This document shows, piece by piece, positions 2,634-51,269 of a stretch of 64,000 nucleotides of DNA; within the stretch, counting starts at the first letter, position 1, and each line of letters begins with the position of its first letter. The position numbers and the translations under genes are program-made. The notes beneath the pieces were generated by a model. The model saw only the letters and a list, made by a program, of their open reading frames with translations, was not told the DNA's origin and did not search any database. Source of the DNA: Eledone cirrhosa (taxonomy: Eukaryota); assembly GCA_964016885.1 (NCBI GenBank), contig OZ024740.1, forward strand, positions 353,958,001-354,022,000. The letters run 5' to 3'.

Positions 2634-2712
<79 letters not shown>

Positions 2713-2832
2713 CTGAGTTTTTCGAATATTAATAATAATATTCGATTCGTTTACAATTATGCAAACAGCCTCTTTTATGTCATGTCAGTAGAATGGGCCC
2801 CTCATTCCTGCTCTTGTGTTGGCATGTAAACA

Positions 2833-2882
2833 GAACTGCAGACACTAATGTTTCTGGGTATTACCCTTCATCAGAACAGTTC
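2833..2882 (-). ncRNA. Type I hammerhead ribozyme
   Basis: Minus strand reads GAACUGUU-CUGAUGA-A GGGU AAU ACCC A-GAAA-CA UUAG UG-UC^-UGCAGUUC. Helices I, II and III all pair; GUC cleavage triplet. Confidence 0.8.
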
Positions 2883-2944
2883 ACTGTTCACCTGCCAACA
2901 GTCAGAGCTAGTGAAAATATATGGTATTTTCTAAAATATACAGT

Positions 2945-3043
2945 GACTGATTGGCTTGATTTGCATATCAGCAGACTGGCTGATCAGTCAGATCTGCATA
3001 TTAGCAGACCCACCGATCAGCCAGATTTGCATTTCAGCAGACC
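2945..3043 (-). promoter_or_regulatory. Three 33-bp tandem repeats each carrying an octamer(-like) motif
   Basis: ATTTGCAT 2959-2966, ATCTGCAT 2992-2999, ATTTGCAT 3025-3032 (ATGCAAAT on minus), upstream of the hammerhead. Confidence 0.6.
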
Positions 3044-9139: not shown

Positions 9140-9333
9140 GGGGTACAAACACACCGAGCATTATAATAAATGTTCGGTGAATCCATACGTACATATATAT
9201 ATGTGTGCATGTATGTATATATATATACATACTACTGTACGTCTGTATACATATATGTATGTACGTATGCATACTTATATTTAAGTAACAGCCGTACTAA
9301 GAGTGAGCAATGAAATTTCGTTTCATTTTTTCT

Positions 9334-9385: not shown

Positions 9386-9605
9386 ATATTTATTAAAATA
9401 ACAGATTAAGATTTAAGCAAAGAATCGCTGCTTTCCCCCTTAACGGGATCTTCAGAAGATCCCGTTAAGGGTGAAAGCAGCGATTCTTTGCTTAAACTTT
9501 AATCTGGTATTTTAATAAATATTTTCTCTACGGTTCTTATATATTTGATATATATTTATCCTTATCGAGCCCTATTTGGATTTTAGTCTTTTAATTTATT
9601 ATTAT

Positions 9606-9934: not shown

Positions 9935-10618
9935 GATATTGTTATACTTTGGGAGGGTCATGTTGCCAATAAGAAACACACGCACCAGTTGCTTTCACTT
10001 CAATTTATTATAATAAATTTATAAATTTCCGGTTGGTTGGTTGGTTCCACAACCAGATGGTTGTTTATATATTGTCAAAGTTCTTTCATCACACATTCTG
10101 TGACCTCTTCAGTGACTGGGGATTCTTTTCTTTGTTTTTGTGCCTCTCCTTTGTTCTGCGCTACGCCATCTTGTTTCTCTGTGTGTGTTGTGTGCTCAGT
10201 CTGCGCATGCGCCACATCCGGGTGTCTGTGTGTGTTTATATTCGTTTATTTATTTGTTTATTTACACGTTACTGGTTGGTTGTTTGTTCTATGTGCGTGT
10301 GTGTTTTCATTTTGTCCTTAATTGTAAGTTGTGATGTTGCTGTTCCACTCATGTTTTCTATTTAATTTTGGTTGTAATTCTTTTATGTTTATTGCCTCTG
10401 TGATTTGTCTAAACATTGCGTCTTTTCTGTGTGTAGATTCTATTTTTATTTCTATGTTCTTTAATTTACCCTTATGTTCTATTTCAGCATGTTGGTAGAG
10501 TACAGATGATTCTTTACTATCTTGAAGGTCTCGCCAGTGTTCATTTATTCGCGCCTCTACACTACGAGCTGTCTCACCTATGTACACTATATTTTTATCT
10601 CCCAAAGTATAACAATAT
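9935..10618 (-). mobile_element. 5'-truncated Penelope-like element (GIY-YIG C-terminus + pseudo-LTR)
   Basis: ORF 10318-10605 VYIGETARS...EH...H...RQITEAINI..LNRKHEWN; closely similar to 27002-27670. Confidence 0.85.
10074..10116 (-). ncRNA. Minimal type I hammerhead ribozyme in PLE pseudo-LTR
   Basis: GUCA-CUGAAGA-G GUCACA gaaug UGUGAU-GAAA-G AA C-UU^-UGAC. Confidence 0.7.
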
Positions 10619-10732: not shown

Positions 10733-11141
10733 ATGTATATATAATGTATTTTGCAATACACTTTATGCTTAATTAAAAGCATTTTGAAGACCGTAAGCTA
10801 TTGTTTTAAAGTAGTGACAAATTCACTTACTTTGATCTCAGCAAACAGGGGAGATAAGCCGACAAGTCTTGTTTCGCTTTGGTTGAAGCTTATCAAGGCT
10901 AACTACCCCTCCTGTCTACCGAGATCACTGATGTTATATTCTTATAGAAATCTAGTAAGTAATCAGGAGCTGATTATGCAGAGCGGTTGTTGGTCAGGCA
11001 GAAATTAAAAATTAGAATTGGAGCTCTGAAATAGCAATATATATATGGATCTATATATAATGTATTTTGCAATACACTTTATGCTTAATTAAAAGCATTT
11101 TGAAGACCGTAAGCTATTGTTTTAAAGTAGTGACAAATTCA
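10731..11141 (-). mobile_element. 316-bp retrozyme-like unit with 95-bp terminal direct repeat
   Basis: 10731-10825 repeated at 11047-11141; non-coding; central hammerhead; bounded by (TA)n. Confidence 0.7.
10857..10900 (-). ncRNA. Type I hammerhead ribozyme, U3-A8 core variant
   Basis: AGCC-UUGAUAA-GCUU caacca AAGC-GAAA-CAAG a CUUG-UC^-GGCU; helix I extends through 10834-10926 (gatctc/gagatc). Confidence 0.75.
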
Positions 11142-13052: not shown

Positions 13053-14818
13053 CTTGTTTGTTGAAATGAATATCAAGCCACTACCTGCAGCCTCAGATAT
13101 TCATGGCGTATCGGAGGGTTCTTGCTGTTCCAAACAAGCATGCCTTTTGAAGCGTTCCAAAAAGCGTGAAGGGGCCAATTTTCTTTAACCATCCCTGGAA
13201 ACTTTTTGAGATAGTCCCTAGTGCGCCTATGACAATCGGGATCACCTTGACTTCATGGCAGTTCCAAATCCTTTTTACCTCCCACTTTAAGTCCTGGTAT
13301 CGGTTAATTTTCTCCCTCTCCTTCTCTTGCACTCTCGTGTCGAATGGGCAGGTCACATCCACAATCAGGCACGATCTTTTTTCTTTGTCCAAAACCACCA
13401 GATCAGGTCTATTGTGTTCCAGTTTCTTGTCCGTCTGTATCCTAAAATCCCACAGCACCTTCACCTGATCGTTTTCTATCACCGCCTCTGGCTTATGCTC
13501 ATACCACTTCTCAGAATGTGGTAAATTGTTTACTTTGCATAGGTGCCAGTGGATCACCCTGCCCATCACATCATGTCTCCAGCCCTTATAGTGAGTCTGG
13601 GCTAGGTGTTTACACTCGGATACAATGTGAGCCACAGTCTCCTCTCTCTCTCCACAGATCCTGCACAGTGGGCTAGCCTCCTCCTTGTAAATGTGGTGTT
13701 TCAACCACTTCGTTTTGAGGGCCTGCTCCTGCGCAGCCATTAACATTCCTTCTGTAGCCTTTTTAAGGTCTCCTCTTTTCAACCACTTCCATGTCTGTGG
13801 ATCTCTGAATTCAGTTTTCTCAAAGAAGGTACTATGAAGGGATTTTTCCTGAAGGCTGCTCTTTCTCTTTGATGTTATTTCCTCCTTGGACATCCCCAGG
13901 TCTATTGTCCTCTCCTTCAGTACAGTTCTGAGCATTGGCTCCTTACTACCAGTCACGTATTTGTGTAGGTTGTTTTTCTCCATCTGAACACAGTCCTCTA
14001 TGCTGATAATACCTCTTCCACCTTCAGATCTCCTTAAGTAGAGTCTATCGACATCACTCCTCTTGTGGAACATGTTGTAGATAGTCAATAGCTTCCTAGT
14101 CTTCCTATCCATTTCTTTTTGTTCAGCAACATTCCATCTCAGAATTCCCTCACTGTACCTAATAATAGACACAGCTCGGGAATTTACTGCACTTATGGCA
14201 TTCCTACTGTTCAGATGTGACTTTAATACGCTCCTTACTCTCCGAATGTATTCAGTTCTTATCAATTCCTTCATTTTTTTGTTCTTGATGTCATCAGCCT
14301 CCAGAACACCCAAATACTTGTATCCTTCTTCAGTGTCAATTTCCTTTATCATCTCACCTGTTGGTACCTGGATTCCGTTACTTCTGCTCAATTTACGCCT
14401 CTTCATCACAAGGACTCCACACTTACTAATACCAAATTGCATACATATATCATTGCTGAAAATACGGACAGTGTCAACAAGCACATCCAACTCCTTCTCA
14501 CTCTTCCCGAAGAGCTTAAGATCGTCCATGAAGAGGAGGTGATTGATGGTAAGCCCTCCCTTTCCCAACCTGTATCCTGCTCTCACTTTTCGCAGTACAC
14601 TGGTCAGGGACATCAGGGCAAAGACAAACAACAGAGGGTCTAGTGTCCTGTCCTTCAGTACAATTCTGAGCATTGGCTCCTTACTATCAGTCACGTATTT
14701 GTGTAGGTTGTTTTTCTCCATCTGAACACAGTCCTCTATGCTGATAAGACCTCTTCCACCTTCAGATCTCCTTAAGTAGAGTCTATCGACATCACTCCTC
14801 TTGTGGCACATGTTGTAG

Positions 14819-14820
<2 letters not shown>
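13053..14820 (-). mobile_element. R4/Dong-clade non-LTR retrotransposon, 5'-truncated (RT C-half + CCHC + restriction-like endonuclease)
   Basis: HLLFMDDLKL, YKYLGVLE, CRIC..ETVAHIVSEC, RHD, RPDLVVLD..IVDV..KEREKINRY, IVIGALG; flanked on both sides by (TAA)n. Confidence 0.92.
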
Positions 14821-14863
<43 letters not shown>

Positions 14864-14872
14864 GTTGTTATT

Positions 14873-15061
14873 ACTCTTTGAGTCTCAGTCATTGATGTTA
14901 TTTAACTGGAAAGTTTGTTGAGATGAATATCAAGCCACTACCTGCAGCCTCAGATATTCAGGACGTATCGGAGGGTTCTTGCTGTTCCCAGCAAGCATGC
15001 CTTTTGAAGCGTTCCAAAAAGCGTGAAGGGGCCAATTTTCTTTAACCATCCCTGGAAACTT
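14873..15061 (-). mobile_element. Second R4/Dong 3' end with longer 3' UTR and (TAA)n tail
   Basis: 14914-15061 nearly identical to 13056-13204. Confidence 0.88.
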
Positions 15062-16012
15062 AGCTCTGACAATGCAATCTTCGTGTTTCGCATTGAAGAA
15101 ATGGTCTAATGCCATTCTCGCCGCTAGCACGTCAGTTGCAATGCCACTACCAATAGCCTCGTCTAGCTTATCTACCAACTCCCCCTCCTTTCTATTTTTC
15201 TCTAACGCTACTTCTTTGCTAAACTCTATCGACATTACTCTAATCTCTCTTTTGAGAGCCCCCCACCATCTATTGTTGACGACTCCCCCTGTCAACTTTT
15301 TATTAACTAAATTGTTGACCTGGTCCCTGTAAGCCTTACGTGCCGGAAATGACAGGTTTAGCTTCCAGTAACCAGGTCCCAACCTACGCGTCTTATCTAG
15401 GTCGACCATACAGATCACAAACTTGTGATCTGAATAGGCGACCGTTTCAAAACGTTGACAGCTTACACTATTTCTGTCTATTTTCCTAATGAATATCCTG
15501 TCTATATACGATCTAGATGACCCTATGCGGTTAGCCCAGGTCCACACTGGTGCATTAGGGAAATCTAGTCGGTACCTGTCAGACAGTTGGAACTGGCTGA
15601 TCAGGTTCTTGAGGCTTTTGCACCCCCCGCTCCTATCGGATACTCCCACACAGTCCCAGCGTGCGTCTAAGATGCCGTTCCAGTCCCCCGCTAACAGTAA
15701 AGGGCGAGACATACCCAGAAAGGCTTCCAGGCGTCTAAAGAAGTCCGGCCGTCCTGCCCCAGTAGGAGCATAGACGGCCACCAGTCTAAAAGCACCACCT
15801 TCGTTATTGTTCACGTCCAGGACCACCAACTTCCCGTCCGGGTCCCGGAAGATCGACCTTACCTCGAGATCCGGGCCTTTCCTAAACAGCACTGCCACCC
15901 CGCCTCCCATTCCCGGCCGACTAACAGATGCAAAGATCTGATAGTCGTTGAAAATGGGGGCTAGTGCGCGTGTGTCGGAAATCCTGGTCTCGCTGACGGC
16001 AATTACATCCAT
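15062..16012 (-). mobile_element. Tx1/L1-group ORF2 fragment (AP endonuclease)
   Basis: DVIAVSET, GGGVAVLF, VYAP, LAGDWN, SYIDRIF, SDHK, GPGYWKLN motifs. Confidence 0.9.
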
Positions 16013-16310
16013 TTCTAATGTGCAGGTCTGATGATGTGGGTATTAATCATAATGCTCCTATTACCACAAGGATAGTGTTTGTGGTCATCCTCCACATGCG
16101 GTTGATCTCTATTTTCAGGTCTGGGTGATGGTTGTACCATTTTCCTCAGTTTTCAGATCATAAAACCTGCACATTACGCAGTGTAAGTATTGTCGCACTC
16201 TATCATGCCTCGTTTTATATTCCTGGGCAGTTTATGCCTTGCAGCTTGAAACCAAGTGATCAATTGTTTCAACATGATCATCACAGAATCGACAGTCAGT
16301 AAATATGTGT
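16013..16310 (-). mobile_element. Degenerate R4/Dong fragment of a different subfamily
   Basis: Minus-strand translation CRFCDDHVETIDHLVSSC..YKTRHDRV..WYNHHP // DLKIEINRMW..VVIGAL. Confidence 0.7.
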
Positions 16311-27007: not shown

Positions 27008-30000
27008 ATACTTTGGGAAGGTCATGTTGCCAATAAGAAACACACGCACCAGTTGCTTTCACTCCAATTTATTATAAATTTTTAAAAAAAATTTTTAATT
27101 TTTATAAATTTCCGGTTGGTTGGTTGGTTCCACAACAGGACGGTTGTTCATATATTGTCAAAGTTCTTTCGTCACGCATTCTATGACCTCTTCAGTGACT
27201 GGGGATTCTTTTCTTTGTTTTGTGCCTCTCCTTTCTTCTGTCCTACGCCATCTTGTTTTTGTGTGTTGTGTGCTTAGTTTGCGCATGTGTTACATCCGGG
27301 TGTCTGTGTGTGTTTTTATTTGTTTATTTATTTGTTTATTTACATGTTACTGGTTGGTTGTTTGTTCTATGTGTGTGTTTTCATTTTGTCCTTAATTGTA
27401 AGTTGTGATGTTGCTATTCCATTCATGTTTTCTATTTAATTTTGGTTGGAGTTTATTTATGTTTATTGCCTCTGTGATTTGTCTAAACATTGCGTCTTTT
27501 CTGTGTGTAGATTTTATTTTTATTTCTATGTTCTCTAATTTGCCCTTATGTTCTATTTTAGCATGTTGGTGGAATATTGATGATTCATTACTATCTTGAA
27601 GCTCTCGCCAGTGTTCATTTAACCGTTCTCCTATACTACGAGCTGTCTCACCTATGTACACTATATTTTTATCTTTACATTGTCCTTCAGTACTATGTTT
27701 CTAGTTTTACAGTTAATATGGGGGTTTGGTTTACAGATTATGCATTTCTTATCTATACAGGCGGGTCTTTGAAAAGGGTATGTATTACTAATAAGTGTTT
27801 TTATGAAGGTACCTTGTCTTTCTACTATCTTAATATTAAGATTAAGTTTATCTAGGGCCCTTCTAAATTTGTAAGCTAATTCACCTCTAGGGTTGTATTG
27901 ATGAACATTACACTCTGGTATTTATTGCTATCATATCATGAGTTTATTCTATTAACCTTATTCCTAGTTCTTTCTATTCTATTCCAAAATTTGCTCCTAT
28001 ACAAGGGCAGGTCCCATTTGTATCATTATTTACCATTTTTTCCCATTTGGTTCTGGCTCCTCTATATACTCTGATTTTATCTCTCTGATTGTAACCAGAG
28101 AACTGCATACGGTGGATGAAGTGTTGTATGTGTCTCTCTAGTTCTTTGGGGTTGCACATGCGGGACACGTTTCTCATCACCCGTACTAAATCCGCAATCA
28201 GTATGTTGATTTTGCTGTGATCCGAAACAGCTGAGTTTCGGTGGATCAGATATTTGGAAGTCATGGGTTTGGCATAATGGGAATGGAGGATTTGTTTTTG
28301 TTATTAATGGTTTCTAACCAGAGCTCTGTGTCTAGTACAGGCAATCGATGGTTGGGGTGTTTGCTTGGGTAGTCTATAGTAACTCTAATACTGTGGTGGA
28401 TGGAGTTATTTGCTGGATGCTTTCCATGGTGTTTTTCTCTAATTCCTGACTGTTCTCTAGTGGGGGTGTTTTTACTACGATGTTTATATCATCAACGTAG
28501 CGAGAGTACATTATCAGGGTTAAGAGGTTGCTGTCTTCTAATTGTTCTTTAAGTTTATTGTCCCACCATACCATGAATAGGTTAGCTATGTCACCTGCAA
28601 TGTTAACACCAATGGCTGCTCCCTCCTCTTGGGCACATGTTTTTCCATTAAATTTGAACATATGTTCCTTAAGGGTTAGTTTTATACTGGCCCCCACCGC
28701 ATGTGCAATCATTTTCTTTAGTTCATCGTAGTTTTCGGGGGTCCGTATGGCTCTGGTCCACCCGTTCCATCTTTCTGTGTGGATTTTCTTGGCCATTGAG
28801 GTAATGGTAGGTGGTCTGCCTCTTGCTGGTCTTGTGGAGCAGAGGTTGCTAAGGTCATACGTATCTAGATATTCATTACAATAAGTAAGTTTAAGTAGGA
28901 GTCTCAGCTCACTGGTATCAATCCCACGGAATTCAACATTGCTCTCACTGATCATTTCTACGCATTTCTCCACAGCAAAATCCACGTCAATGGATGGATA
29001 TAGGGACACAACATCCATACTACCTATTATACAGTCTGTTAGGTCCCTAGATCGGTTATTTTCGCTGATTCTGCTGAGGAGGTCCTCCGTGCTGTCACAT
29101 ATATCCGGGGACATTTCAATGATGGGGCGTATGATCAGGGAGAGGAAGTAGGACAGTCTGTAGTTACTAGCAATGTTAGCTCCACAGACTGGCCGTGTTG
29201 GTGGTCCTGTGACTGGGTCACTGTTCGTCTTATGGTCTTTTCGAAGCCCATACAACGCTGGCACGTCATTGTTCCAGGCCTGGTAGTTGTTGGCAGTCCG
29301 TTTATTGGGCTGCATTATGTTTTTCCACATCATCATATGAGCATTGAGGGTTTTCTCCCTATCCTCATGCTCTTGTGGTGTTGCATTGCCTGGATGTAGT
29401 TTGACAGACTGTCAACCGACATTCTGCCAGACTTGTCTGTTGGAAAGCATACAATTTCCCCATTACGCGAGCGCTGCATGAGCTTACGCAAGCCATTTGC
29501 AGATTTTTCTCTCAGTTGCTGGGCCTCCATTCTATTTTGCTTCTTGCTATACTGTTCTATAATATTTCTAAGTTTAGATCTAGCTATACTAAATTGTGCT
29601 TCTGTTTGTTGATCGACCTGCGACGGCAATTGCGTGCGTTTGTTAAAAGCTAAAGTCCTGCCGTGGACTCGTCGCAGGTCGAAGGACATATCCGAAGGGT
29701 TATAAAAAGTAGAATTCCAAGCTGCTGCTTTATGTGTACTATTGCTGTTGTTATTGCTAGTTGTGTTGTTTCTATTTCTATTTTCACCAACAGCCTCATG
29801 GTTGTTTCTATGTCTCTCATTATTACTCCTGTCTCTTTCCTCTGGCTCATTGTTATTATCTACTCTATTGTGTGTCTGTGTGTTCGTCCTAGTTATTTTC
29901 TCTGTCAGTATCGGTAGTCTCCCTTCTTATTTCAATCCCATTACCTTCCCTTACTTCTATGTTACTGTCATTATCTGTTTTCTGTGTCTGTGTGTCTGTT

Positions 30001-31139: not shown

Positions 31140-31480
31140 TGCACACAGATATATACATATGTACGCATGGGTTATATCGAACATTAATAATAATGTTCAA
31201 TTCGTTTGTAAATAAACGGCCCGATTTGAAGCCATGCCGTGTCGGTGACCGATCATCACCTGTTTGTCCAAAACTGGTTTTGAGGAATAATCAACACATT
31301 TCTGGGCCATTACCCTTTATCAGGACTGTATAACTCTGCCAATCTGTTGAACGGTTGGAAATATATAGTAATTTCTTAAGTACACATCGGCTGAGTAGCC
31401 TCATTTGCATACCGAGCGAGTTACAGCTGGCCTTGCCGAATATTAAATATAAAATTAGAATTTTATTTCTCGCCCTAGCG
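31140..31480 (-). mobile_element. Diverged relative of the 456-bp retrozyme-like family
   Basis: Octamer 31403-31410, hammerhead remnant 31287-31329 (CUGAUAA A GGGU AAUG GCCC A GAAA), shared gaacatt..aatgttc hairpin. Confidence 0.7.
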
Positions 31481-31494
31481 TGTGTGTGTATGGT

Positions 31495-31534
31495 ATGTAC
31501 TAGTTTCAAGCTTGTTAGCTATCGTCAGCACCGT
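31495..31534 (-). ncRNA. Hammerhead ribozyme (inverted copy, helix I 3' strand truncated)
   Basis: ACGGUG-CUGACGA-U AGCU AACA AGCU U-GAAA-CUAG-UA^-CAU. Confidence 0.7.
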
Positions 31535-31782
31535 ATACCCTTCTGCCAGATGGTTGAAAGTTCGAAAGTATATACTTTCCTTATGAAAATTAACGGCTGA
31601 GCCGCCTAATTTGCATATCGAGTGAGTTCAGTCGGCCAGGCGCACCGAAAACGATAAATGGAATAGAATGAAACGAACTTTCATTTCTCACTCTTAGTAC
31701 GGCACTTACTTAAATAGGAAAGTATATACTTAATAAGGAAAGTATATACTTTCGAACGTTCAACCATCTGGCAGAAGGGTAT

Positions 31783-31825
31783 ACGGTGCTGACGATAGCT
31801 AACAAGCTTGAAACTAGTACATCGT
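31783..31825 (+). ncRNA. Minimal type I hammerhead ribozyme
   Basis: ACGGUG-CUGACGA-U AGCU AACA AGCU U-GAAA-CUAG-UA^-CAUCGU; palindromic ACUAGU helix III. Confidence 0.85.
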
Positions 31826-32156
31826 TCCTGTGTCAGTGTTGAACAAAAAGGTGACGTGGTTGCTTTAACACCGTACGGCATAAATCAGGCTGTTCGTTTG
31901 TTTACAAACGAACAAAGCGAACATTATAATAAATGTTCGCTAAACTGATACGTACATATATATATATGTGTGCCTGTATGTATATATATACATGCTACTG
32001 TACGTATGTATACATATATGTATACATATATGTATGTACGTATACATGCATACTTACATTTAAGTAAGTGCCGTACTAAGAGTGAGAAATGAAATTTCGT
32101 TTCATTCTATTCCATTTATCGTTTTCGGTGCGCCTGGCCGACTGAACTCACTCGAT

Positions 32157-32209
32157 ATGCAAATTAGGCGGCTCAGCCGTTAATTTTCATAAGGAAAGTA
32201 TATACTTTC
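32157..32209 (+). promoter_or_regulatory. Octamer + TATA-like palindrome upstream of hammerhead
   Basis: ATGCAAAT 32157-32164; GAAAGTATATACTTTC 32194-32209. Confidence 0.5.
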
Positions 32210-32238
32210 GAACGTTCAACCATCTGGCAGAAGGGTAT

Positions 32239-32281
32239 ATGGTGCTGACGATAGCTAACAAGCTTGAAACTAGTACATCGT
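32239..32281 (+). ncRNA. Minimal type I hammerhead ribozyme (second tandem copy)
   Basis: AUGGUG-CUGACGA-UAGCUAACAAGCUU-GAAA-CUAG-UA^-CAUCGU. Confidence 0.85.
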
Positions 32282-32582
32282 TCCTGTGTCAGTGTTGAAC
32301 AAAAAGGTGACGGGGTTGCCTTAACACCGTACGGCATAAATCAGGCTGTCCGTTTGTTTACAAACGAACAAAGCGAACATTATAATAAATGTTCGCTAAA
32401 CTGATACGTACATGTATATATATATGTGTGCCTGTATGTATATATACATGCTACTGTACGTCTGTATACATATATGTATGTACGTATACATACATACTTA
32501 CATTTAAGTAAGTGCCGTATTAAGAGTGAGAAATGAAATTTCGTTTCATTCTATTCTATATATATATATATACATATATATA

Positions 32583-34112: not shown

Positions 34113-34405
34113 TAAAAGGTAAACGAAATAACAACACAATCGGTACAGTATATGGAAAGGATATATTAGGTTAACGCTTGATATAGCAGGAAGAGAGTCT
34201 TAACGTTTCAGACGCTAGTCCTTCATCAGAAGAAAGAGAAATAAGATAGATTGAGGGGACGGAGGGGTGGAAAAAATGTCTTCAGATAAAAATAACATGT
34301 ACATTCATGTTGACACCTCTTGCAAAACTGTTGGTGCTGGCGTTTTGTGTATGATTTATTTTTTTAGAAAAGAAGCTGTGAGCAAATGTGTATGTGTGTG
34401 TGTGT
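34113..34405 (-). mobile_element. Solo PLE pseudo-LTR (family of 45000-47643) with hammerhead 34198-34233
   Basis: Reverse complement aligns with ~47360-47643; UCUU-CUGAUGA-A GGAC UAGC GUCU-GAAACGUUA^AGA. Confidence 0.8.
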
Positions 34406-39149: not shown

Positions 39150-42100
39150 TCACATAAAAATAGTTTGGCAGAACTTTTTGGGCCAGTGGACTCTCCGACC
39201 GGAACGGGTCGTAGTCTTGTATGTAGGTGAAGGTGGGGCAGAAGGAGCAGGTGTATGCACAATTGTGAAAGATTGGGGTATTTGTGGCTCGGGTGTATGA
39301 GCGTCATTGTGTGCCCTTTTCAGTCTATCCACCGAAATTGTCTCTCTGGACCCTTTAACGTCTACAGTGAAATGTTTGTCAGTGCGTGCTAACACACGGT
39401 AGGGTCCAGAGTATGGTTGTGTGAGGGGTGGTCTCACAGCATCGTTCCTTACGAACACATGGGTCCACGAGGCAATGTCCCTCGGGACCGCATGTTTTAC
39501 AGTTTGCTTCCTCGTATCCATCGGCGGCAGGTCCTGTAAATAAGAACGCAGACGGGATACGTAGGAAAGCAGATCTTGGAAAGCAAGATCAACAGGGGCA
39601 AGCATTTGCCTAGGCAACGCTAGAGGAGCACCGTAAATAAATTCGGCCGGGGAGAACCCAAGGTCCGCCTTTATTGATGACCGAATTCCTAATAACACAA
39701 TAGGAAGGTACTCGCTCCAACGTTGAGAGTCTGGATAGGCGCGAAGAGCGGCCTTTAATTGGCGGTGGAATCGTTCCACCATTCCATTTGAAGCAGGATG
39801 ATAGGCCGTGGTCCGAATCCGTTGAGCTTCAATTATTTTGGTGAGCTCAGAGAAGAGATGGGACTCGAATTGTCTACCGCGGTCTGTGGTGAGTGTAGTT
39901 GGTACCCCAAAGCGGGTAATTCACCATGATACCAGGGCACGTGCTACAGTCTCAGCAGTCATGTCTTGTAAAGGGATGGCTTCAGGCCATCGCGAAAAAC
40001 GATCGACACACGTCAATATGTAGGAATATCCACTGCTGAATGGCCAAGGTCCAACGATGTCAATGTGGATGTGTTGGAACCGGGCATCTGGAGTGGTGAA
40101 AGTACCCAGTGGAGTCCGGATGTGTCTATAGATCTTCGATTTCTGGCAAGCGATACAGGAACGGCAAAAAACAGCAATGTCGCGCCTCATATTAGGCCAG
40201 AAGAATCTGGCTGTTATGAGTTAAATTGTGGCAGCCGATCCTGGATGAGAAATGTTGTGCAGAGCCAGGAACACAATTCGACGGTGAGTCTCAGGAACAA
40301 GTGGTCGTGGTGCATCAGTGGATACATCACAAAGGATCTGCCTGTCGGTGGTGGACAAGGGCAGATATTTGAAAATGCAAGTCGCAAATTCGGTAGAAAG
40401 AGTGTCCAACGATTGGAGTGCAGGTTGGTCTGCAGCTAAACGACCTAAATCGATATCCTGGGATGACGAGATGGAGCTAATTGGCAAACGAGATAATGCG
40501 TCTGCAACTATGTTGTGCGAGCCAGCAATGTGCTGGATATCGTTTGTAAATTGTGAAACGTAGTCCAGGTGCCTTGTCTCTCTGGGCGAATATCTGTCGG
40601 CTTTGGCCCTCAAAGCGAAGGTCAACGGTTTGTGGTCGGTAAAAACCGTAAAATTTCTCCCCTCAAGGATATGAGAGAAATGTTTCACCGACAGATATAT
40701 GGCTAATAATTCCCGCCCAAACGTGCTATAACGCGTTTCTGCTGGTTTCAACTTCCTCGAGAAAAATGCCAAAGGTTGTTGGCTTTCAGCGTAAGACTGC
40801 TGTAAAACTGCACCCACAGCGGTATCAGATGCATCAACACAAAGCGAAAGCTTGGCCTCTGGTACCGGGTGGGCTAGCAAAGAAGAACTAGCGAGGGCTG
40901 TCTTGGCAGACTGGAAGTCCTGAAGCTGTCCTTGTGTCAAGGAAATGTCTTCATTCTTCTTACGACGTTTTTTTTAAATGTCAGTAAGGGAAGATAGCCA
41001 ATTAGCACAATGAGGAATGAAACGCCTATAGAAATTGATTAGGCCTAAGAAGTGACGCAACTGGTGAAGTGTAGTAGGCGGCGGTAACTCCTGTATGGCT
41101 TGAACTCGCTCAGGGAGCGGCCTTCGGCGTCGATGAGGTGGCCTAAAAAATGTAGGGAAGTGGAACCGAAAACACACTTTGCAGGATTCACGCGAACGCG
41201 GTAATCCTGAAGTCGCCGAAGTAAGAGAAGCATGTGGCGCATATGCTCTTCCGGAGAGGAACTAGCGACGAGAATATCGTCTATGTAAGCATAGACGAAG
41301 TCCAGACCACGCGTGACCTCGTCTATGAACCGCTGAAAAGTGCTAGCGGCGTTCCTGAGTCCGAAAGGCATGGTCAAAAATTCGAATGATCCGAAAGGGG
41401 TTGTAATTGCAGTTTTCGGAATATCCTCCTTCCTGACCGGAATTTGGTGGTAGGCTCGCACTAAATCTAACTTAGAAAAAATCTTACACCCCTGCAGTGA
41501 AGATGCAAAATCGTGGAGATGGGGAATGGGATACCTATCCGGGACGGTCATGGCATTTAACCTCCTATAATCCCCCGTGGGTCTCCAGTCGCCGGAAGTC
41601 TTGGGAACCATGTGTAACGGTGAAGCCCAAGGACTCGTAGATGGGCGAATAATGCCCAGCTGCAGCATATGGTCGAACTCGGACCGTGCTGCCTTTAATT
41701 TTTCCGTCGGTAAGCGGCGTGGGCGCGAAAACACTGGGGCACCGGTGGTGGAAACAAAATGTTCGGTCGAGTGTGTTGGGTCAGTGACTCGAAAATTTCC
41801 ATCCGTGAGCTCCGGGAAAGAACCCAGTAACGCATGGTAAGCGTCACCAGCGGCAGCGATAAAGAACACGGGGCTGACTATTGGGGCCTTGGCTTCCTGG
41901 CCATGAATTGAAAAGCCGGTGATGTTATCCACCAGGCGTTGGCCACGGACGTCCACAGTTAAAGAGAAGTTGTGGAGGAAATCCGCTCCTAAGATGGGAT
42001 ATGGCAAATCGGCAACCGTAAAAATCCACTTAAAATCCCTTCGAAGATTTAGGAATTTAAGAGGGAGCGAGATTTGCCCGTACGTCTTTATAGACGAGTG

Positions 42101-42295
42101 GTTAACTGCCTGCAGCGTGACAGATGACTCTATGGGGGTATCTTTCAGGCAATGGACCGGCCAGATACTACAGAAGGCTCCTGTATCCACGAGGAAACCT
42201 CTTCCGGATATTAGGTCCTTAATGAAGAAATGGCGGTTTGGTGGCTTTATGTTGAGGCCATCTGTCCCCATCAGAGGACCTCTTAAGCGTTTCCC
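39150..42295 (-). pseudogene. pol: Gypsy pol (protease, RT, RNase H, integrase) with stops/frameshifts
   Basis: [45 protein letters not shown]; split across ORFs 41045-42271, 40974-41177, 40221-40940, 39921-40190, 39150-39782. Confidence 0.93.
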
Positions 42296-43077
42296 GCCTT
42301 ATGATAGGAGCAAGGTTGCACGCAGTGCTTCGCGTTCTCCGCGAATCGCTCGTGGTACCAGCATAAGGCTGAACCAGGTGATTTGGACCGCCGTCTGAAA
42401 CTTTGCGATCTCCCGCGACTGCGGGAGCGCGAACAGCCACCACACAAGGCCTTCATCTTGTGGAGCTCCATGGTGAGCTCCTGAATGGACCTTTGCATCG
42501 CAATGATAGCCAAGCTATCTGTTGGTGCTGCCGCGTAGATCGCATGGCCGTGTGTGGCCCGAGCTGGGTGTTGAACAGCGGCGAGGGGGTCGCTGTCTCC
42601 GGCATTCGTCACCTCGAATATCTTGTCCGCCGATGAGGCAAGCTGCTCAACCGAGCTCGAATCCCTCATGGGGGCCAAAATTGCCTGTACGTTCGTCGGC
42701 AGGTGCGAAAAGAACAACTGCTTCAGCAGGGCAGTTTCCGCTGCAGACCCCTCCGTTAGGTCCTTCATCCGCCTAAGGAGGTTCGATGGTGTGCCATCCC
42801 CTATGTGCTCCAGGTGGACCAGAGCCCTAAATCTCTTCTCTGACGACTGTTCTGTCCGGCTGAGTATTTCAGCCTTCAGAGACGCGTACGACGACTCTGT
42901 CGTTGCCTCCAACACGAGGTCCTTGACCGCTGGGAGAATTGCCGGCGGAATGGCACTGAGGACCACAGAATGCTGTAGTTCCTCGTCGACTCTGTTCGCC
43001 CTGAAGAAAGCTTCTAATTGCGAGAACCACAACCTTACGTCGCCCGTGTACGTTGGCAGAACAGAGTGGGAAGCCAT
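42283..43077 (-). CDS. gag: Gypsy gag
   Basis: 264-aa ORF with [17 protein letters not shown] and C-terminal [12 protein letters not shown] motif. Confidence 0.88.
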
Positions 43078-43543
43078 TGGTATGCCGTAGTGATCTACCG
43101 TTTGGGAAAAATGTCTCTAAGGTAACAGTAAATGGAAACTAAAATCTTTCGTCAGAGCACTGAACCGGAAAACTAATGCATCCGGGACAGTGTGCGAACA
43201 AGCGATTACTTGAATGCTGTTATCTACGTTAATTTCGGGAGACCTAAAAACTCAACTAAAAAAAATCCAACATGGCGGACTATTTCGCGCCAAAACACTA
43301 TTTAAAGAGAAGAGAGACTCCATCTTGTCATCCTCATAAAAAAATTTTTTTTTTTTTTTTTTGCGAGAGAAGCGAAAGGCAGAAAAAGGAGAGAAAAGAG
43401 AATGGTGAAAACATTTATAGAATTGTGGTTTGTCTGCGTGTCAATAATTGTAGGTGTTATATTTTTCTCTTTTTTTTTTTTGTTTGTGTCTTATATCATA
43501 TCAGATACACCGTATACCATTTCCCATTGAAAAAAAAAATAAT

Positions 43544-44999: not shown

Positions 45000-47262
45000 G
45001 ACGAGTTCCGCACACGTGCCGAGATTGAAGGGTTCTTCCGTCGATTAAAGCTGAAAGCTTTTTTTCACGACACGCCATCATCGACACAGACGGATAACTT
45101 AACTCGTCTCAGTCACCGGCAATCACATTGGACGCCGAACTCTGGCCAGTTCAGCACCCTCGACTCCTTTGTCGATACTTTCCAGCTTACTGTGAATCGG
45201 TTCCGTTTCCACCAGCATTCTGGTCGCTCTAACATCACTCGAACTGAGCTCTCCGCTCTTCGCAACTTTCGGCGTCGCGATGACATTATCATCAAACCCG
45301 CTGACAAAGGTGACGCTGTGGTGGTTTGGAGCGCTGACCTCTATAGGGCTGAGGCTGTCCGCCAGCTTCACAATACCCATTTTTACCGCCCTTTATCCTC
45401 TGACCCTACTCCTGGCTACCAACAACTCGTGTCCTCCATCATCCACGAGCTCATCTCCTTCTCTCACCTACCCCCACAGCCACCAACATTATTGTACGCA
45501 CCTTTCGCACACCCACCATCTACTTCCTTCCCAAAATACACAAACAAAATAATCCTGGCCGTCCTATCGTTTCTGCGTACAACTGCCCCACCGAGATAAT
45601 TTCAGAATATTTAGTCACTCTCCTCGTCCCGTTGGTCGGCAATCTCCCCTCCCACATCCACGATACGAATCATGCCCTTAGACGCTTCAACTCTTTCTCC
45701 TTCCCTCCAGGTCCCTCCCGCCTTCTCTTTACCCTGGACATCACTTCTCTCTATACCGTCATCCCTCATGATGAGGGCCTCTGCAATCTCCAGCATTTTT
45801 TAGATTTACGCCCTACCTCTTACCCCAGCGCTATCACTCTTCTCCGTCTGGCTGAGCTTGTTCTCACCCTTAATGGATTTTCTTTTTCGGGTGAATTTTA
45901 CCAACAGGTCTCTGGGGTAGCGATGGGAACCAGAAAGAATCCAAACTATGCCCACTTGTTTGTTGGCTACGTCGAAGCCCAGATCTTCTCCCAGTACGCT
46001 GGACCGACTCCTGAGCTATACGGTCGTTATATCGACGACTGTATCGGCGCCACCTCTCTATCACGAGAACAGCTCGACTGTTTTCTTTCTTTTGTCCACT
46101 TTTTCCATCGTGCTCTCAATTTCACCGCCTCTGTCTACGATTCTTCTGTCGCTTTTCTAGATATCTCTCTATCTATTAATCACTCTCACCACACCCTCTC
46201 TACTTCCATCTACATTAAACCAACAGACTCTCAATATTACCTCGACTTCACCTCCTCCCATCCAACCCACACACAACACTCCATACCCTATTCCCAATTC
46301 CTCCGTCTTCGTCGACTCTGTAGCCAGGACGACGATTTCGAAACCCATTCCCTTCGCATGGCTTCCTGCTTCATCCAGCGTGGAAATCCCCCCCCCCCCA
46401 CCTTGATCCAAGCTGCTCTCACCCATGCCAGTGAAACAGACCGCACCACAGCCCTCTCACCTCACCCCCGCCCTTCCAACAACCGTGTTCCTTTCCCTCT
46501 CACCTACCACCCTACCACTCCGTTCCTTCCGTATCCTCTCTTCTGACCCCGTCACTTCTCGTTTTTTTTCCAAACCCACCCATTACTGCTTTTAAGAGCA
46601 CCCGCAACCTCCGCGACCTCCTGGTTCGCAGTTCCTTTTCGTCCTCTCCCACGACTCCACCCGGCTCTCATCCTTGTTCCCGTTCCCGCTGCAACACTTG
46701 TCCCTTTATTTCCACCCTCACCACTCTTACAGGCCCTAACGGGTCTTTCCGTATCCGCCATTCCTTCACCTGCACATCCACCCACGTTGTCTATGCCCTC
46801 CGGTGTTCCCTTTGCGGGTCTTTATATATCGGACAAACGGGACGCCGTATGGCGGACCATTTTGCCGAACACTTGAGGGACATACGACTCGGTTTGGATA
46901 CTCCTGTCGCCCGTCATTTCTGTTCTCCTGGTCATTCTTCCCTACATGTTTCAGTCCTGGGTGTCCTTTTACATCATGGATCACAGGCCTCGCGCACCAG
47001 GACTAAAAGTCTGATTCACCGCCTTGGGTCCTATTCCCCTCTTGGATTCAACTCACCTCCCCAATTTCTCTAATACTCCGTCCATTATCACACCTAGATT
47101 CCTATCGCTTTCTCTTGATCATTAGCAGCTTCTCTTACAACCAATACATGCCGATACACACCCTTATATTAACATACTTTTGCTCCTAGCTTCGTATTTA
47201 CATGCACATACACTCTTTTACTCACATATACACACACATTTCTTAGCTTCGTACAGACCCAT

Positions 47263-47305
<43 letters not shown>

Positions 47306-47641
47306 TGCTCAAGTATAGCTCTTTTTACAAAACGTTTTTTTTTCATTTCAGGTAGACGAACTCCATCATGCACTTTTCTAAAAAAACTAATCATACACAA
47401 AATGCCAGCACCAAGAGTTTTGAAAGAGATGTCAACAGGAATGGACCTGTTATTTTTATCTAAAGACATTTTTTCCAATCCACCCAGCCCATCCCCTCAA
47501 TCTATTTTATTTCTCATTCTTTCTTCTGATGAAAGCCTAGCGTCCGAAACGTTAAGACCCTCTTCCTGCTATACCATGTGTTAATCTAATATATACCTTC
47601 CATATACTGTACCGATTGTGTTGTTATTTCTGTTTACCTTT

Positions 47642-48326: not shown

Positions 48327-51269
48327 CAGAGTAATTCGTGGTAGAGGGATGGTCAGTAGGAATATGTCTGTAAGTGAGTGAGGGATATTTTAACATGTTA
48401 AAAGATATTTTTCAGCTCTTGTCTTATACGGAGAAGTGTGTGTGCGTGTGTGTGTGTAGCAGAGTAATTCGTGGTAGAGGGATGGTCAGTAGGAATGTGT
48501 CTGTAAGTGAGTGGGGGATATTTTAACATGTTAAAAGATATTTTTCAGCTCTTGTCTTATACGGAGAAGTGTGTGTGTGTGTGTGTGTGTATAAGTCTCT
48601 TTGTATGTTAATGTACGCGTGTGTATGTGTGTGTGTGAGAGAATGTGTGTGTGTGTGTGGACCAGTATTTTTTTCCTGGTAAAATGGTGTACATTATTCG
48701 ATATTTTCAGTAAAATCGATTCTCTCAATAGAACATCAAAAACCTTAACAATAAAAGGCGTGAAATGATATTCACTATATATATATATACATATATTCAC
48801 TATATATATATATATTTTTTTTTTTGTGTTGCACCATAGAACATGTGTGTTTACGTATGTCATTGTGTTTATATGTGGGTAGAGATGTGTGCTGATGTAG
48901 GTATGTATGTTGACGTGTGTATGTTGTGGGTTCGTCTTAGGGAGAAGTGTTTAGACGGAGTCCGTATTTATTAATAAAGTAAGATTCCTTGTTGATGCGC
49001 TGGGTGTGGGTGGCATTACCTTTAAATTTGTAGAGGGGAAAGATTCTGAAGTTGGGATGATTTTGGGCGGCACAGGTATCAATGTGTTCACTCAGTGGTA
49101 TTTTCCTGTATTCCCGTATTTTAATTTGGGATCTGTGGACAGTCATGCGTTGGCGGAGGCTGTTTTTGGTCTGGCCTATGTATTGTTCTCGACAACCTGA
49201 GCAAGTTAATACATATATTAGATTTTCCGATGCACATGTGAAATTGTGTTTTACTATAAAACGTTGTCCTTCTTTGAAATAGAATTCCGAACCCTCTATT
49301 AGGTTGATGCAAATGCCACAGCTGGGTCTATCGCATTTTTTTACTGTGGGTTTCGTTGTTGTGGTTGGCAGTACTTTGGCATGTGTTAGGAACGTTTTCA
49401 TTGACTTAGATTGTCTTTTGCTCTTTATAATATCGTGTGTTCGTAGGATTTGGTTCATTCTATGGTCCTTTTTCAACACAGGGATGTTCTGGAGGATGGT
49501 GTCAAAGGCCTCATTGTTGAGGGGGTTGTGTGTGGAGATGTATGGAAGAGCTTTTAGTTTCGGTTGATTTACTTTAGGGTGTCTAAGGTCCTGGGTACTG
49601 AATTTTAGGGCACGTTGGATTCCATTGTCAATTAGTGATGCAGGGTAGTCCCTGCCTATGAGTGTGTCTTTTAGTTCTTGTAGCCGTAAGTAGCAGGTGT
49701 TTTTATAGTACAGATTCTCTTGGCTAAGTTGTAGGGAATATTAATTTTAACGTGTCTAGGGTGGCAAGAGTTGAAAGGAAGATATTGCTTGGAGTCTGTG
49801 GGCTTGTAGTATATGTCTGTTTCTATTTTTTTGTTATGGATCTTAATGAGGATGTCGAGGAAGGGGAGTTGTTGATGGCTGTATTCCATTGTGAAGTTAA
49901 TATTCGTGTTGAGCCCATTTATAAGGGTGTGAAATTCTTTAAGTTTTTCGATGGTTTCGTGCCAAAGAATGAAGCAGTCATCTAGATATCGCTTCCAGTT
50001 CCTTTCTATGTGTAAGTGGAGAGTGTTTCCAAATTTGTTTAGGACTTTAGTGTAGAGGGTGATTTCCAGGTATCCCATGACTAGGTTGGCATAAGTGGGG
50101 GCTGTTTTCGTTCCCATAGCGGTCCCAGATTTCTGCCTGTAGGGTTTGTTATTGAAAACGAAGTAATTGTTCTCCAAGATGAATTTGAGTCCCTCTATCA
50201 CGAATTCTTTTTTGATGCGTTGTGGGAGTTCATTGTGGTAATTATCCAGCCAGAATTGGATAGCTTCTATTCCTAGGTTGTGGAGGATGTTGGAGTATAG
50301 GTTGACTACATCGAACGTCACTAGTAGGGTTTGTTCAGAAAGTGGCATATTAGGGAGGTGATTGAGCATATCTAGGTCGTCCCTTATATAGCTTTTGATG
50401 TGTTTGAGAAAGGGCTTGAGAAGGGTATCAATGAAGTTGCTAAGGCGGTGGGTTTCGCAAACGGGGCCTGCTATTATAGGTCTTAATTTGAGATCATTGG
50501 GTGAGGGGACATTGATGACTATGTTTGTGGCTTGCTTGCATGCCTTACTTATTAATTCGCTTTTATGTACTTTAGGGATACCGTAGAAAAGGCTGGATTT
50601 ACTTGTGAAGTCTGTGATGACGCTGAATTCCTTGTTAGTGAGTCCTTCTTTGTATTGGTTGATTAGAGATTTTAGGTTTCTCATAATTTCTGTTGATTGT
50701 AGTGTTCAGCCTTTTCGTAGTATGTTTCGTTTTCCAAAGTGGAGAGCGCTAAGTTGATATAGAATTCTGTCTCCATTAGGACTACTGTACTAGCTTTATC
50801 AGCCTCTTTAATTGTAATGGTTCTGTCGGTTTTTAATCTATTTAATTCTTCCCATTCTTTCTTGTTGAGGTTTGGCTTGTGTTTTTGTCTGTGCAAGTGT
50901 TGGTAAGGAAAGTTTGTGATGTGTTCACAGAATTCGTCCAGGATTTTATTTCTACCTTTTGATGGGGTGTAATTGCTTCTATTTCTGGCTAATGATTCAT
51001 CCTCATTGTACTGGTCGAATAGTTGTTCACTGAGTCGTAACTTTCTACAGAAGTCTGTGATGTCTTCCTTCATTTCATAGTAGTTAGGACGTAGTGGGGG
51101 TCGGTGTGAATTTAAGACCTTTGGAGAGTAAGTTGATAAGGTTGGGTGTTGGTTCTGCACTAGTAAGATTGATAATTTTTATTACTATCGGTTTCTCCTC
51201 CCTGTCTTGTGTTATTTTGTTTGCCTGTATCTGTGTGCTGTGTCTAAAAAATGATTGGGGTAGAGGGGT

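What the first reader, a model, noticed from the sequence alone, without database searches (positions are those of the whole stretch)
2833..3043. Hammerhead preceded by a triplicated octamer cassette
Seen: minus strand reads ATGCAAAT-caagCCAATcag...ttagaaaataccatatattttc...TTGGCAG...CTGATGA, with the proximal octamer about 92 bp upstream of the core. The octamer unit is amplified as three 33-bp repeats. Helix II (A GGGU..CCC A) matches the remnant at 31287-31329. Inference: promoter amplification in a ribozyme-bearing element.
Basis: partly seen in the sequence, partly recalled or inferred. Interest (0 to 1): 0.7.

Follow-up and report, generated by a model that had tools for sequence, protein, structure and literature searches.

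The report
Ribozyme repeat with tripled borrowed promoter
This is one truncated copy of an abundant non-coding repeat with a hammerhead motif (predicted to cut its own RNA), whose upstream block matches the signal in front of the host's own U6-type RNA genes and likely works as a built-in promoter; the block is tripled in this one family, and the extra copies are likely passengers rather than a stronger promoter.

Summary
Window 2707-3042 (minus) is a solo, 5'-truncated copy of a high-copy family (A; unit about 435 bp) with a type I hammerhead fold, supported by covariation across three related families. Copies show Penelope-type insertion marks. The 'octamer' is part of a 13-base element found at -76 to -79 in 7 of 7 host U6, U6atac, MRP and tRNA-Sec promoters. 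The next motif (TCAG) and the TATA sit at the spacing of the host's U1/U2 promoters, so the unit likely carries a borrowed small-RNA promoter; the polymerase is unresolved.

'Promoter amplification' is weakly supported. Three units is the family's fixed state (32 of 49 copies; shorter ones look like scattered deletions). Only the proximal unit is spaced to the TATA, units 1 and 2 fold into a 20-pair hairpin, and the younger, more abundant family C has one unit. The CCAAT box is private to this copy. 31287-31329 is a separate family (B) with its own element.

Precedent: newt satellite 2. No RNA data were available. The scan noted the single-unit system before, elsewhere in this genome.

The parts
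2707..3042 (-). Solo, 5'-truncated copy of retrozyme family A (unit positions 47-391 of about 434), no tail, ending in a (CA)n/(TA)n microsatellite
   Evidence: 92.6% identical to the L007 unit
2958..3043 (-). 33-bp array, three octamer-bearing units; the family's majority state
3025..3032 (-). Distal octamer (unit 1); no TATA at host spacing
2992..2999 (-). Middle unit, variant ATGCAGAT, lying in the hairpin stem
2976..3024 (-). Inverted repeat between units 1 and 2 (arms 3024-3004 and 2997-2976, loop 3003-2998), about 20 pairs
   Evidence: (z -6.2 for the window copy)
2955..2967 (-). Proximal 13-base element containing the octamer; matches the -77 element of host U6/U6atac/MRP/tRNA-Sec promoters (12.3 bits in this copy, 16.7 in the family majority)
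2950..2954 (-). CCAAT, a private change from family CCGAT; not a family feature
   Evidence: 4 of 49 copies
2943..2950 (-). TCAGTCAC, matching the -57 motif of host U1/U2/U4/U5 promoters (14.8 bits in the family majority)
2914..2923 (-). TATA-like box, 30 bases before the predicted start
2893..2893 (-). Predicted transcription start (A of TGGC|A; 2893-2889 by the two host geometries); not shown
   Evidence: inference
2819..2898 (-). Type I hammerhead with extended helix I: helix I 2880-2875/2840-2835, core 2874-2868, helix II 2866-2856, GAAA 2854-2851, helix III 2851-2842, predicted cut 2841/2840. This copy has a U-U mismatch next to the cut site; the family has A-A at the base of helix II
2707..2818 (-). 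3' part of the unit with hairpins shared by families A, B and C
31161..31460 (-). Family B copy: single element at 31410, TATA-like box, hammerhead with mutated core (CTGATAA) at 31323
31495..31650 (-). Family C, inverted partial copy with single element at 31616
31771..32416 (+). Family C partial tandem: a partial unit (31771-31960) and a fuller unit with single element at 32157

Best explanation
The stretch is a truncated copy of a non-coding hammerhead repeat (a non-LTR retrozyme) that likely carries a borrowed host small-RNA promoter inside its unit, and the 33-bp triplet is a family-wide duplication of that promoter's upstream block in which likely only the proximal unit works. Inferred cycle: a tandem source copy is transcribed from about 20 bases before the ribozyme core. 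Read-through into the next unit and cutting at both hammerheads would release a unit of about 435 nt that contains the promoter. The unit would be circularised by a host ligase and copied into microsatellites by a Penelope-type reverse transcriptase and endonuclease. Polymerase: I put Pol III with leaky termination at about 0.5 and Pol II at about 0.4. The triplet likely arose once in the source element by slippage or fold-back and was carried along; its hairpin may help the RNA fold. The window copy has one ribozyme and no partner unit, so it is predicted to be a dead end.
For: Shown: hammerhead core and helices, 95% of 120 cells paired, 16 cells changed on both sides, 0 of 500 shuffles as high. 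Copy number: 2,250 candidates, 622 exact matches to a 37-base core stretch. Penelope-type marks: 45 of 136 sampled places have an adjacent inverted copy; in 35 of 39 scored the roughly 35-base tail is on one end only, in 4 on both, in 0 on neither; 16 of 136 have a direct partial tandem. describes these marks for Penelope-like elements. Host match: 7 of 7 Pol III small-RNA promoters carry TATG[CG][AT]AAT[TG]AG at -76 to -79 with TATA at -30/-31; none of 9 U1/U2 promoters scores above 3.1 bits. Families A, B and C score 16.7, 19.4 and 19.8 bits, inside or just above the leave-one-out range 12.7-19.0. Relative to TGGC|A, all three place TCAG at -56/-57 and TATA at -30, as U1/U2 do. Triplet: 32 of 49 copies have about 3 units, 8 have 2, 8 have 1, 1 has 4; shorter copies have different breakpoints and do not cluster on the tree. 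No extra unit in 20 of 20 B and 20 of 20 C copies.
Against: No transcript, start site or cleavage was observed. Element-to-TATA spacing is 42-45 bases against 46-48 in all 7 host Pol III promoters. The TCAG match is strong only in A (14.8 bits; B 6.1, C -0.7). The distal host motif ACCTCCCTT (about -260 in 10 of the 16 promoters scanned) has no match at the expected place in any family. T-runs of 5 or more lie inside the unit in 34 of 39 family A junctions and 5 of 12 family C tandem units, which Pol III would have to read through. No T4 depletion downstream of the start (P 0.41-0.63). No clear pile-up of copy 5' ends at the predicted start. Rfam finds no hammerhead here, and the free fold prefers another pairing of the core by 4.4 kcal/mol. 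No autonomous partner sharing the 3' part was found in the window; the genome was not searched for one. The host profiles rest on only 7 and 9 promoters.
Confidence: 0.68

Rival explanations
1. Promoter amplification: the extra units act as enhancer-like binding sites for a POU/Oct or SNAPc-type factor and raised family A's transcription.
For: Each 33-bp unit copies both host motifs; unit 1 still scores 13.1 bits (Pol III profile) and 10.5 bits (Pol II profile). Three units stayed the majority state. 33 bp is about three helical turns (inference). Octamer sites act as distal enhancers of human snRNA genes (PMC9652321). Raw octamer decay is lower than flanks, 3.2% against 5.7%, p = 0.014.
Against: The raw decay difference disappears at A/T sites (3.1% against 3.4%) and the proximal octamer is not better kept. 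The middle unit is degraded in the way that perfects the hairpin. Family C has one unit, is younger (top hits 97-98% identical against 93-95%) and fills 89 of the first 100 rows against 11 for A (counted by eye; exact matching favours young families).
Confidence: 0.2
2. The triplet was kept for RNA structure: the 20-pair hairpin and its flanking pairings stabilise the circular RNA or keep the promoter region from disturbing the ribozyme.
For: Hairpin z -7.9 (family majority) and -6.2 (window); the circular L007 unit folds at z -9.2 with the cassette as one long rod; retrozyme circles are described as highly self-paired (PMC7229834).
Against: B and C spread without such a hairpin. A fold-back origin gives the hairpin without any selection. 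No compensatory changes could be tested within one family.
Confidence: 0.2
3. The upstream block is not a working promoter: the units are transcribed by read-through from neighbouring genes or elements, and the motif is kept for another reason, such as binding by the reverse transcriptase or a host protein.
For: Spacing differs from host Pol III promoters by 1-6 bases and the distal host motif is missing; no expression data.
Against: A 13-base near-identity with 7 of 7 host promoters, plus TCAG and TATA at host positions, kept across families only 38.5% identical in three-way alignment, is hard to explain otherwise.
Confidence: 0.12

Closest known systems
Newt satellite 2 (Coats, Zhang and Epstein 1994; not held; seen only as cited in PMC2220036, and PMC6765202)
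   Same: Hammerhead-bearing tandem unit with an internal snRNA-type promoter, transcribed by Pol II according to the citing papers. That its promoter includes an octamer and a PSE is recalled, not read.
   Different: Here the upstream element matches the host's Pol III class and lies 73 bases before the predicted start; one family triplicates it; copies are mostly dispersed partial or inverted dimers; transcription is untested.
Metazoan non-LTR retrozymes (Cervera and de la Pena 2020, PMC7229834; abstract, passages and part 4 of 6 read)
   Same: Type I hammerhead in a short non-coding unit, tandem copies, thousands per genome, Penelope-like elements proposed as the mobiliser; a mismatch at the base of helix II is also described for axolotl HHR_Amex2.
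   Different: Unit of 430-500 bp is above their 170-400 nt; the term search found no octamer, no cephalopod and no endogenous promoter analysis in the main text; circles are not shown here.
Retrozymes as non-autonomous Penelope-like elements (Li, Clavereau and Pollet 2026, 10.64898/2026.07.22.740005; abstract, term search and section 14 read)
   Same: Penelope link; here supported by inverted 5'-truncated partners and a one-sided tail.
   Different: Their main text has 0 hits for promoter, octamer, snRNA, octopus and cephalopod. They show homology to autonomous pLTRs, which was not found here within the window.
Schistosome Sm-alpha hammerhead repeats (as summarised in PMC6765202; Ferbeyre 1998 not held)
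   Same: Promoter followed by hammerhead; Pol III; tandem copies needed because single copies lose the ability to propagate.
   Different: Their promoter is a tRNA-type internal one (recalled); here it resembles the gene-external U6 type.
Type 3 Pol III and Pol II snRNA promoters (PMC9652321, passages read)
   Same: Upstream element plus TATA at about -30.
   Different: The repeat combines the host's Pol III-class element with the host's Pol II-class TCAG at Pol II spacing, a combination seen in none of the host genes examined, and lacks the distal element.

Membership tests
Type I hammerhead ribozyme | Core C3-A9, G12-A14, A15.1-U16.1, NUH cut site, open helix I | tested here: met
   CTGATGA 2874-2868, GAAA 2854-2851, GTC 2843-2841; intact core in 24 of 47 copies that span it
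Type I hammerhead ribozyme | Helices I-III kept by compensatory change | tested here: met
   95% of 120 cells paired, 4 of 12 pairs change on both sides; slid controls 22-39%; rows are related, so cells overcount events
Type I hammerhead ribozyme | G10.1-C11.1 pair at the base of helix II | tested here: not met
   A-A in families A and B, U-U in C; a U-U variant is described in axolotl
Type I hammerhead ribozyme | Match to an Rfam hammerhead model | tested here: not met
   none at E up to 1 (window) or 5 (local)
Type I hammerhead ribozyme | Self-cleavage | not testable with these tools
   Indirect only: copy 5' ends are about twice as dense just 3' of the cut site (16 of 50 events, p = 0.017), which a reverse transcriptase stalling at helix I would also give
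Metazoan non-LTR retrozyme | Short non-coding unit with one type I hammerhead, in tandem copies | tested here: met
   A: 441-base cut-to-cut unit in L007, mostly partial dimers; C: arrays with periods 456-502; no ORF of 150 aa or more at 2707-3042
Metazoan non-LTR retrozyme | Abundant linear and circular monomer RNA | not testable with these tools
   no RNA holder listed
Penelope-like element mobilisation | Inverted 5'-truncated partner, partial tandem, 30-40 bp tail on one end | tested here: met
   45 of 136 inverted, 16 of 136 direct, tail on one end in 35 of 39; features as described
Penelope-like element mobilisation | Shared pLTR with an autonomous RT + GIY-YIG element | tested here: inconclusive
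   RT and GIY-YIG frames lie in the window but share no 3' sequence with A, B or C; genome not searched for a partner
Host type 3 Pol III promoter | 13-base element TATG[CG][AT]AAT[TG]AG | tested here: met
   A 16.7, B 19.4, C 19.8 bits; 4 of the window's top 5 sites are these repeats
Host type 3 Pol III promoter | Element-to-TATA spacing 46-48 | tested here: not met
   42-45 in A, B, C
Host type 3 Pol III promoter | Distal ACCTCCCTT near -260 | tested here: not met
   also not found in some host genes (U6atac, MRP, tRNA-Sec L257)
Host Pol II snRNA promoter | TCA[GA]T at -55 to -58, TATA-like near -30, pyrimidine-A start | tested here: inconclusive
   Positions met in A, B, C; sequence match strong in A only; the AATTA motif near -90 is absent
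Host snRNA-type promoter (either class) | Transcription start and factor binding | not testable with these tools
   no RNA or ChIP data

The most novel reading that the evidence does not exclude
These retrozymes built a hybrid promoter that no examined host gene has: the U6-class upstream element moved about 4 bases closer and joined to the U1/U2-class core, recruiting the small-RNA machinery while letting the polymerase read through T-tracts to make circle precursors. Family A then multiplied the whole 33-bp block into an enhancer that doubles as an RNA hairpin. More than 20,000 such cassettes, against about a hundred chance sites, could compete with host small-RNA genes for their factor.
Probability: 0.22. 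Interest if true: 0.75.

Novelty: new variant of a known kind. Interest (0 to 1): 0.5.

Why it matters
Animal retrozymes are reported as heavily transcribed, but the papers read here do not say what drives them, apart from the newt and schistosome cases. This genome offers a precise, testable answer: a host small-RNA promoter block with a predicted start base, and natural one-, two- and three-unit variants for a dose test. It also defines the host's two small-RNA promoter classes, which is of practical use for guide-RNA expression. The triplication itself is probably a minor family quirk.

Tried and rejected
Expression: no RNA holder listed. The three listed runs are contigs of one sample of unrecorded kind; laid on L007 they showed thousands of diverse family contigs and no start or end; uninformative. 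Rfam: no hammerhead at the site. CCAAT box as a family element: rejected (4 of 49). Octamer constraint within family A: the raw signal (p = 0.014) vanishes at base-matched A/T sites. One- or two-unit subfamilies: rejected, no clustering on a poorly resolved tree (1 of 46 branches well supported). T4 depletion as a Pol III sign: not significant. Pile-up of copy 5' ends at the predicted start: 4 of 70 at unit positions 186-202 in one sample and 7 of 70 by the list for the other; confounded with helix I arms; inconclusive. RNA-editing scars in family A: A>G 30 of 2832 against T>C 35 of 2558, p = 0.32. Dropped before the promoter profiles: 9 of 12 U6 and 8 of 9 U6atac upstream regions shown, which lacked both element and TATA and looked like retrocopies; near-identical array members of U1, U2 and U6. 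Only 49 of 136 places had both anchors for the unit count. Papers not held: Coats 1994, Ferbeyre 1998, Cremisi 1992, Denti 2000. PMC13652810 (passages) had nothing on the topic. Supplements were not read; those of PMC7229834 and the 2026 preprint may list cephalopod retrozymes.

Full report
Observation. The minus strand holds ATGCAAAT at 3032 and 2966 and ATGCAGAT at 2999, 33 bases apart, then a TATA-like tract (2923-2914), TTGGCAG (2898) and CTGATGA (2874), 92 bases from the proximal octamer. Tandem Repeats Finder gives period 33, 2.6 copies, 81% matches. The window lies in a 3.0-Gb genome of 1,796 contigs. Earlier AI notes call it a cephalopod; I did not test that.

The ribozyme. 2898-2819 reads as a type I hammerhead: helix I (6 pairs, extended by two further stems), core, 4-pair helix II, 3-pair helix III and a GUC cut site at 2841/2840. 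Across 10 distinct rows from three families, 95% of 120 cells pair and 16 cells change on both sides; slid controls pair 22-39%. Against it: Rfam reports no hammerhead, the base of helix II is A-A rather than G-C, the free fold prefers another core pairing by 4.4 kcal/mol, and this copy has a private U-U mismatch beside the cut. Cleavage is predicted, not shown.

The element. The stretch belongs to family A: 2,250 candidates and 622 exact matches to a core stretch. The unit is about 435 bp. I sampled 136 distinct places by two exact patterns that lie downstream of the cassette. Of these, 45 have an adjacent inverted copy pointing outwards and 16 a direct partial tandem. The roughly 35-base tail is on exactly one end in 35 of 39 scored cases. 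These are the marks described for Penelope-like elements (10.1101/2021.04.23.441226, passages). The window copy runs 3042-2707, lacks its 5' end, tail and partner, and ends in a microsatellite. RT and GIY-YIG frames occur in the window but share no 3' sequence with the repeat.

Two sister families. The 'remnant' at 31287-31329 belongs to family B (2,813 candidates), and 31616 and 32157 to family C (2,188 candidates). Each has one octamer, 87 or 88 bases before the core; no extra unit was seen in 20 B and 20 C copies. The three majority sequences are 38.5% identical in three-way alignment, and TATGCAAAT is the longest invariant run.

What the octamer is. I pulled the host's own small-RNA genes. 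Seven distinct Pol III promoters (three U6, U6atac, MRP, two tRNA-Sec) all carry TATG[CG][AT]AAT[TG]AG at -76 to -79 and TATA at -30/-31. Nine U1/U2 promoters lack it and carry TCA[GA]T at -56 to -58; 4 of 6 U4/U5 regions carry that motif too. U6 and U6atac hits without element and TATA were set aside as likely retrocopies (9 of 12 and 8 of 9). On the Pol III profile A, B and C score 16.7, 19.4 and 19.8 bits (leave-one-out range 12.7-19.0; 99.99th background percentile 9.8). Relative to the A of the conserved TGGC|A, all three place TCAG at -56/-57, TATA at -30 and the element at -72/-73. So the repeats join the Pol III-class element to Pol II-class geometry. Genome-wide the 13-mer occurs 26,415 times against 104 for the reversed control, and 20,644 are followed by a hammerhead core start.

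Which polymerase. For Pol III: the element is specific to that class and is the best-kept motif. For Pol II: spacing to the TATA is 42-45 rather than 46-48; T-runs of 5 or more sit inside the unit in 34 of 39 A junctions and 5 of 12 C units; and newt satellite 2 is reported as Pol II. In plants spacing sets polymerase choice (PMC9652321). T4 depletion was not significant. I leave this at about 0.5 against 0.4.

The triplication. Among 49 copies with both anchors, 32 have about three units, 8 two, 8 one and 1 four. Shorter copies break at different points and do not cluster on the tree, which is poorly resolved. Three units is therefore the source state and the rest look like independent losses. 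Only the proximal unit has a TATA at a workable distance; the distal two score 13.1 and 7.3 bits. Units 1 and 2 form a hairpin of about 20 pairs (z -6.2 in the window), and the middle unit's departure from the octamer is what pairs in the stem. Octamer sites decay less than flanks in raw counts (19 of 600 against 105 of 1,850, p = 0.014) but equally at A/T sites, and the proximal one shows 10 of 200; this is what neutral decay of dead copies gives and says little about the source element. Family C, with one unit, is younger and fills 89 of the first 100 rows. The CCAAT box is private to 4 of 49 copies. An enhancer role for the distal units is not excluded.

Mechanism. Shown: sequence, fold potential, family structure, insertion marks, match to host promoter motifs. 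Inferred: transcription from a tandem source copy, read-through, double cleavage, circularisation and Penelope-driven insertion, following the model of PMC7229834 (part 4 of 6). Most copies reach upstream of the predicted start (47 of 70 in one sample), which requires a template containing the promoter, such as a circle or multimer. 5' ends are about twice as dense just 3' of the cut site (p = 0.017), but stalling at helix I would give the same.

Known or new. Retrozymes and their Penelope link are in print, and an internal snRNA-type promoter is known for newt satellite 2 (the paper itself was not held). Seven library searches found no description of a cephalopod retrozyme, of a U6-class element inside a retrozyme, or of its multiplication; supplements and most subscription papers were not seen. 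The scan's earlier notes describe the single-unit system in other parts of this genome; none of the notes shown described the triplet, and the sequence look-up returned nothing. My reading was formed before those look-ups. Verdict: new variant of a known kind, interest 0.5.

Noticed in passing
L031-L041, L077, L081-L085, L135-L140, L257, L258, L291-L296: The host's small-RNA promoters split into two very different classes: Pol III genes with TATGCAAATTAG near -77, Pol II genes with AATTA near -90 and TCAGT near -57; both have a TATA-like box near -30 and many share ACCTCCCTT near -260.
   Followed up: partly
L256:1390-1500: The RNase P RNA gene has the Pol II-class TCAGT and the distal motif but no Pol III-class element, so it may be a Pol II gene here. 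SRP genes (L299, L300) have neither proximal motif.
   Followed up: no
window 10840-10910 minus: Weak Rfam match to Hammerhead_HH9 (25 bits, E 0.071) in a long hairpin, with a degenerate upstream block and TATA-like box; possibly a fourth family.
   Followed up: no
window 9432-9476: Palindrome that reads as a hammerhead-like core on both strands.
   Followed up: no
window 34206-34229 minus, 47526-47549 plus (approx.), 10084-10112 minus, 27167-27195 minus: Further minimal hammerhead-like cores; the one near 47.5 kb lies just after a reverse-transcriptase frame and looks like a Penelope terminal repeat (recognised by eye).
   Followed up: no
window 48937-50705 minus, 45404-47073 plus, 58347-58841 plus, 28374-29411 minus: Broken Penelope-like frames: RVT_1 and GIY-YIG matches, mostly below Pfam's cut-off.
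   Followed up: partly
window 39150-43116 minus; 13093-16042 minus: A broken LTR-type retrotransposon (RVT_1 E 5e-35) and LINE-like frames.
   Followed up: no
families B and C (window 31290-31300, 32265-32275): Helix III is a short palindrome, the form reported to cleave as dimers, while family A has a 3-pair helix III with a tetraloop.
   Followed up: partly
window 9144-9197 plus: Short 3' fragment of a family B/C unit beside a microsatellite.
   Followed up: no
L008, L012, L028, L062, L063, L086: Another short repeat is inserted again and again at about unit position 355-370, inside the AT-rich 3' hairpin of family A.
   Followed up: no
L141: A U6atac-like copy is joined directly to an inverted family A cassette.
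   Followed up: no
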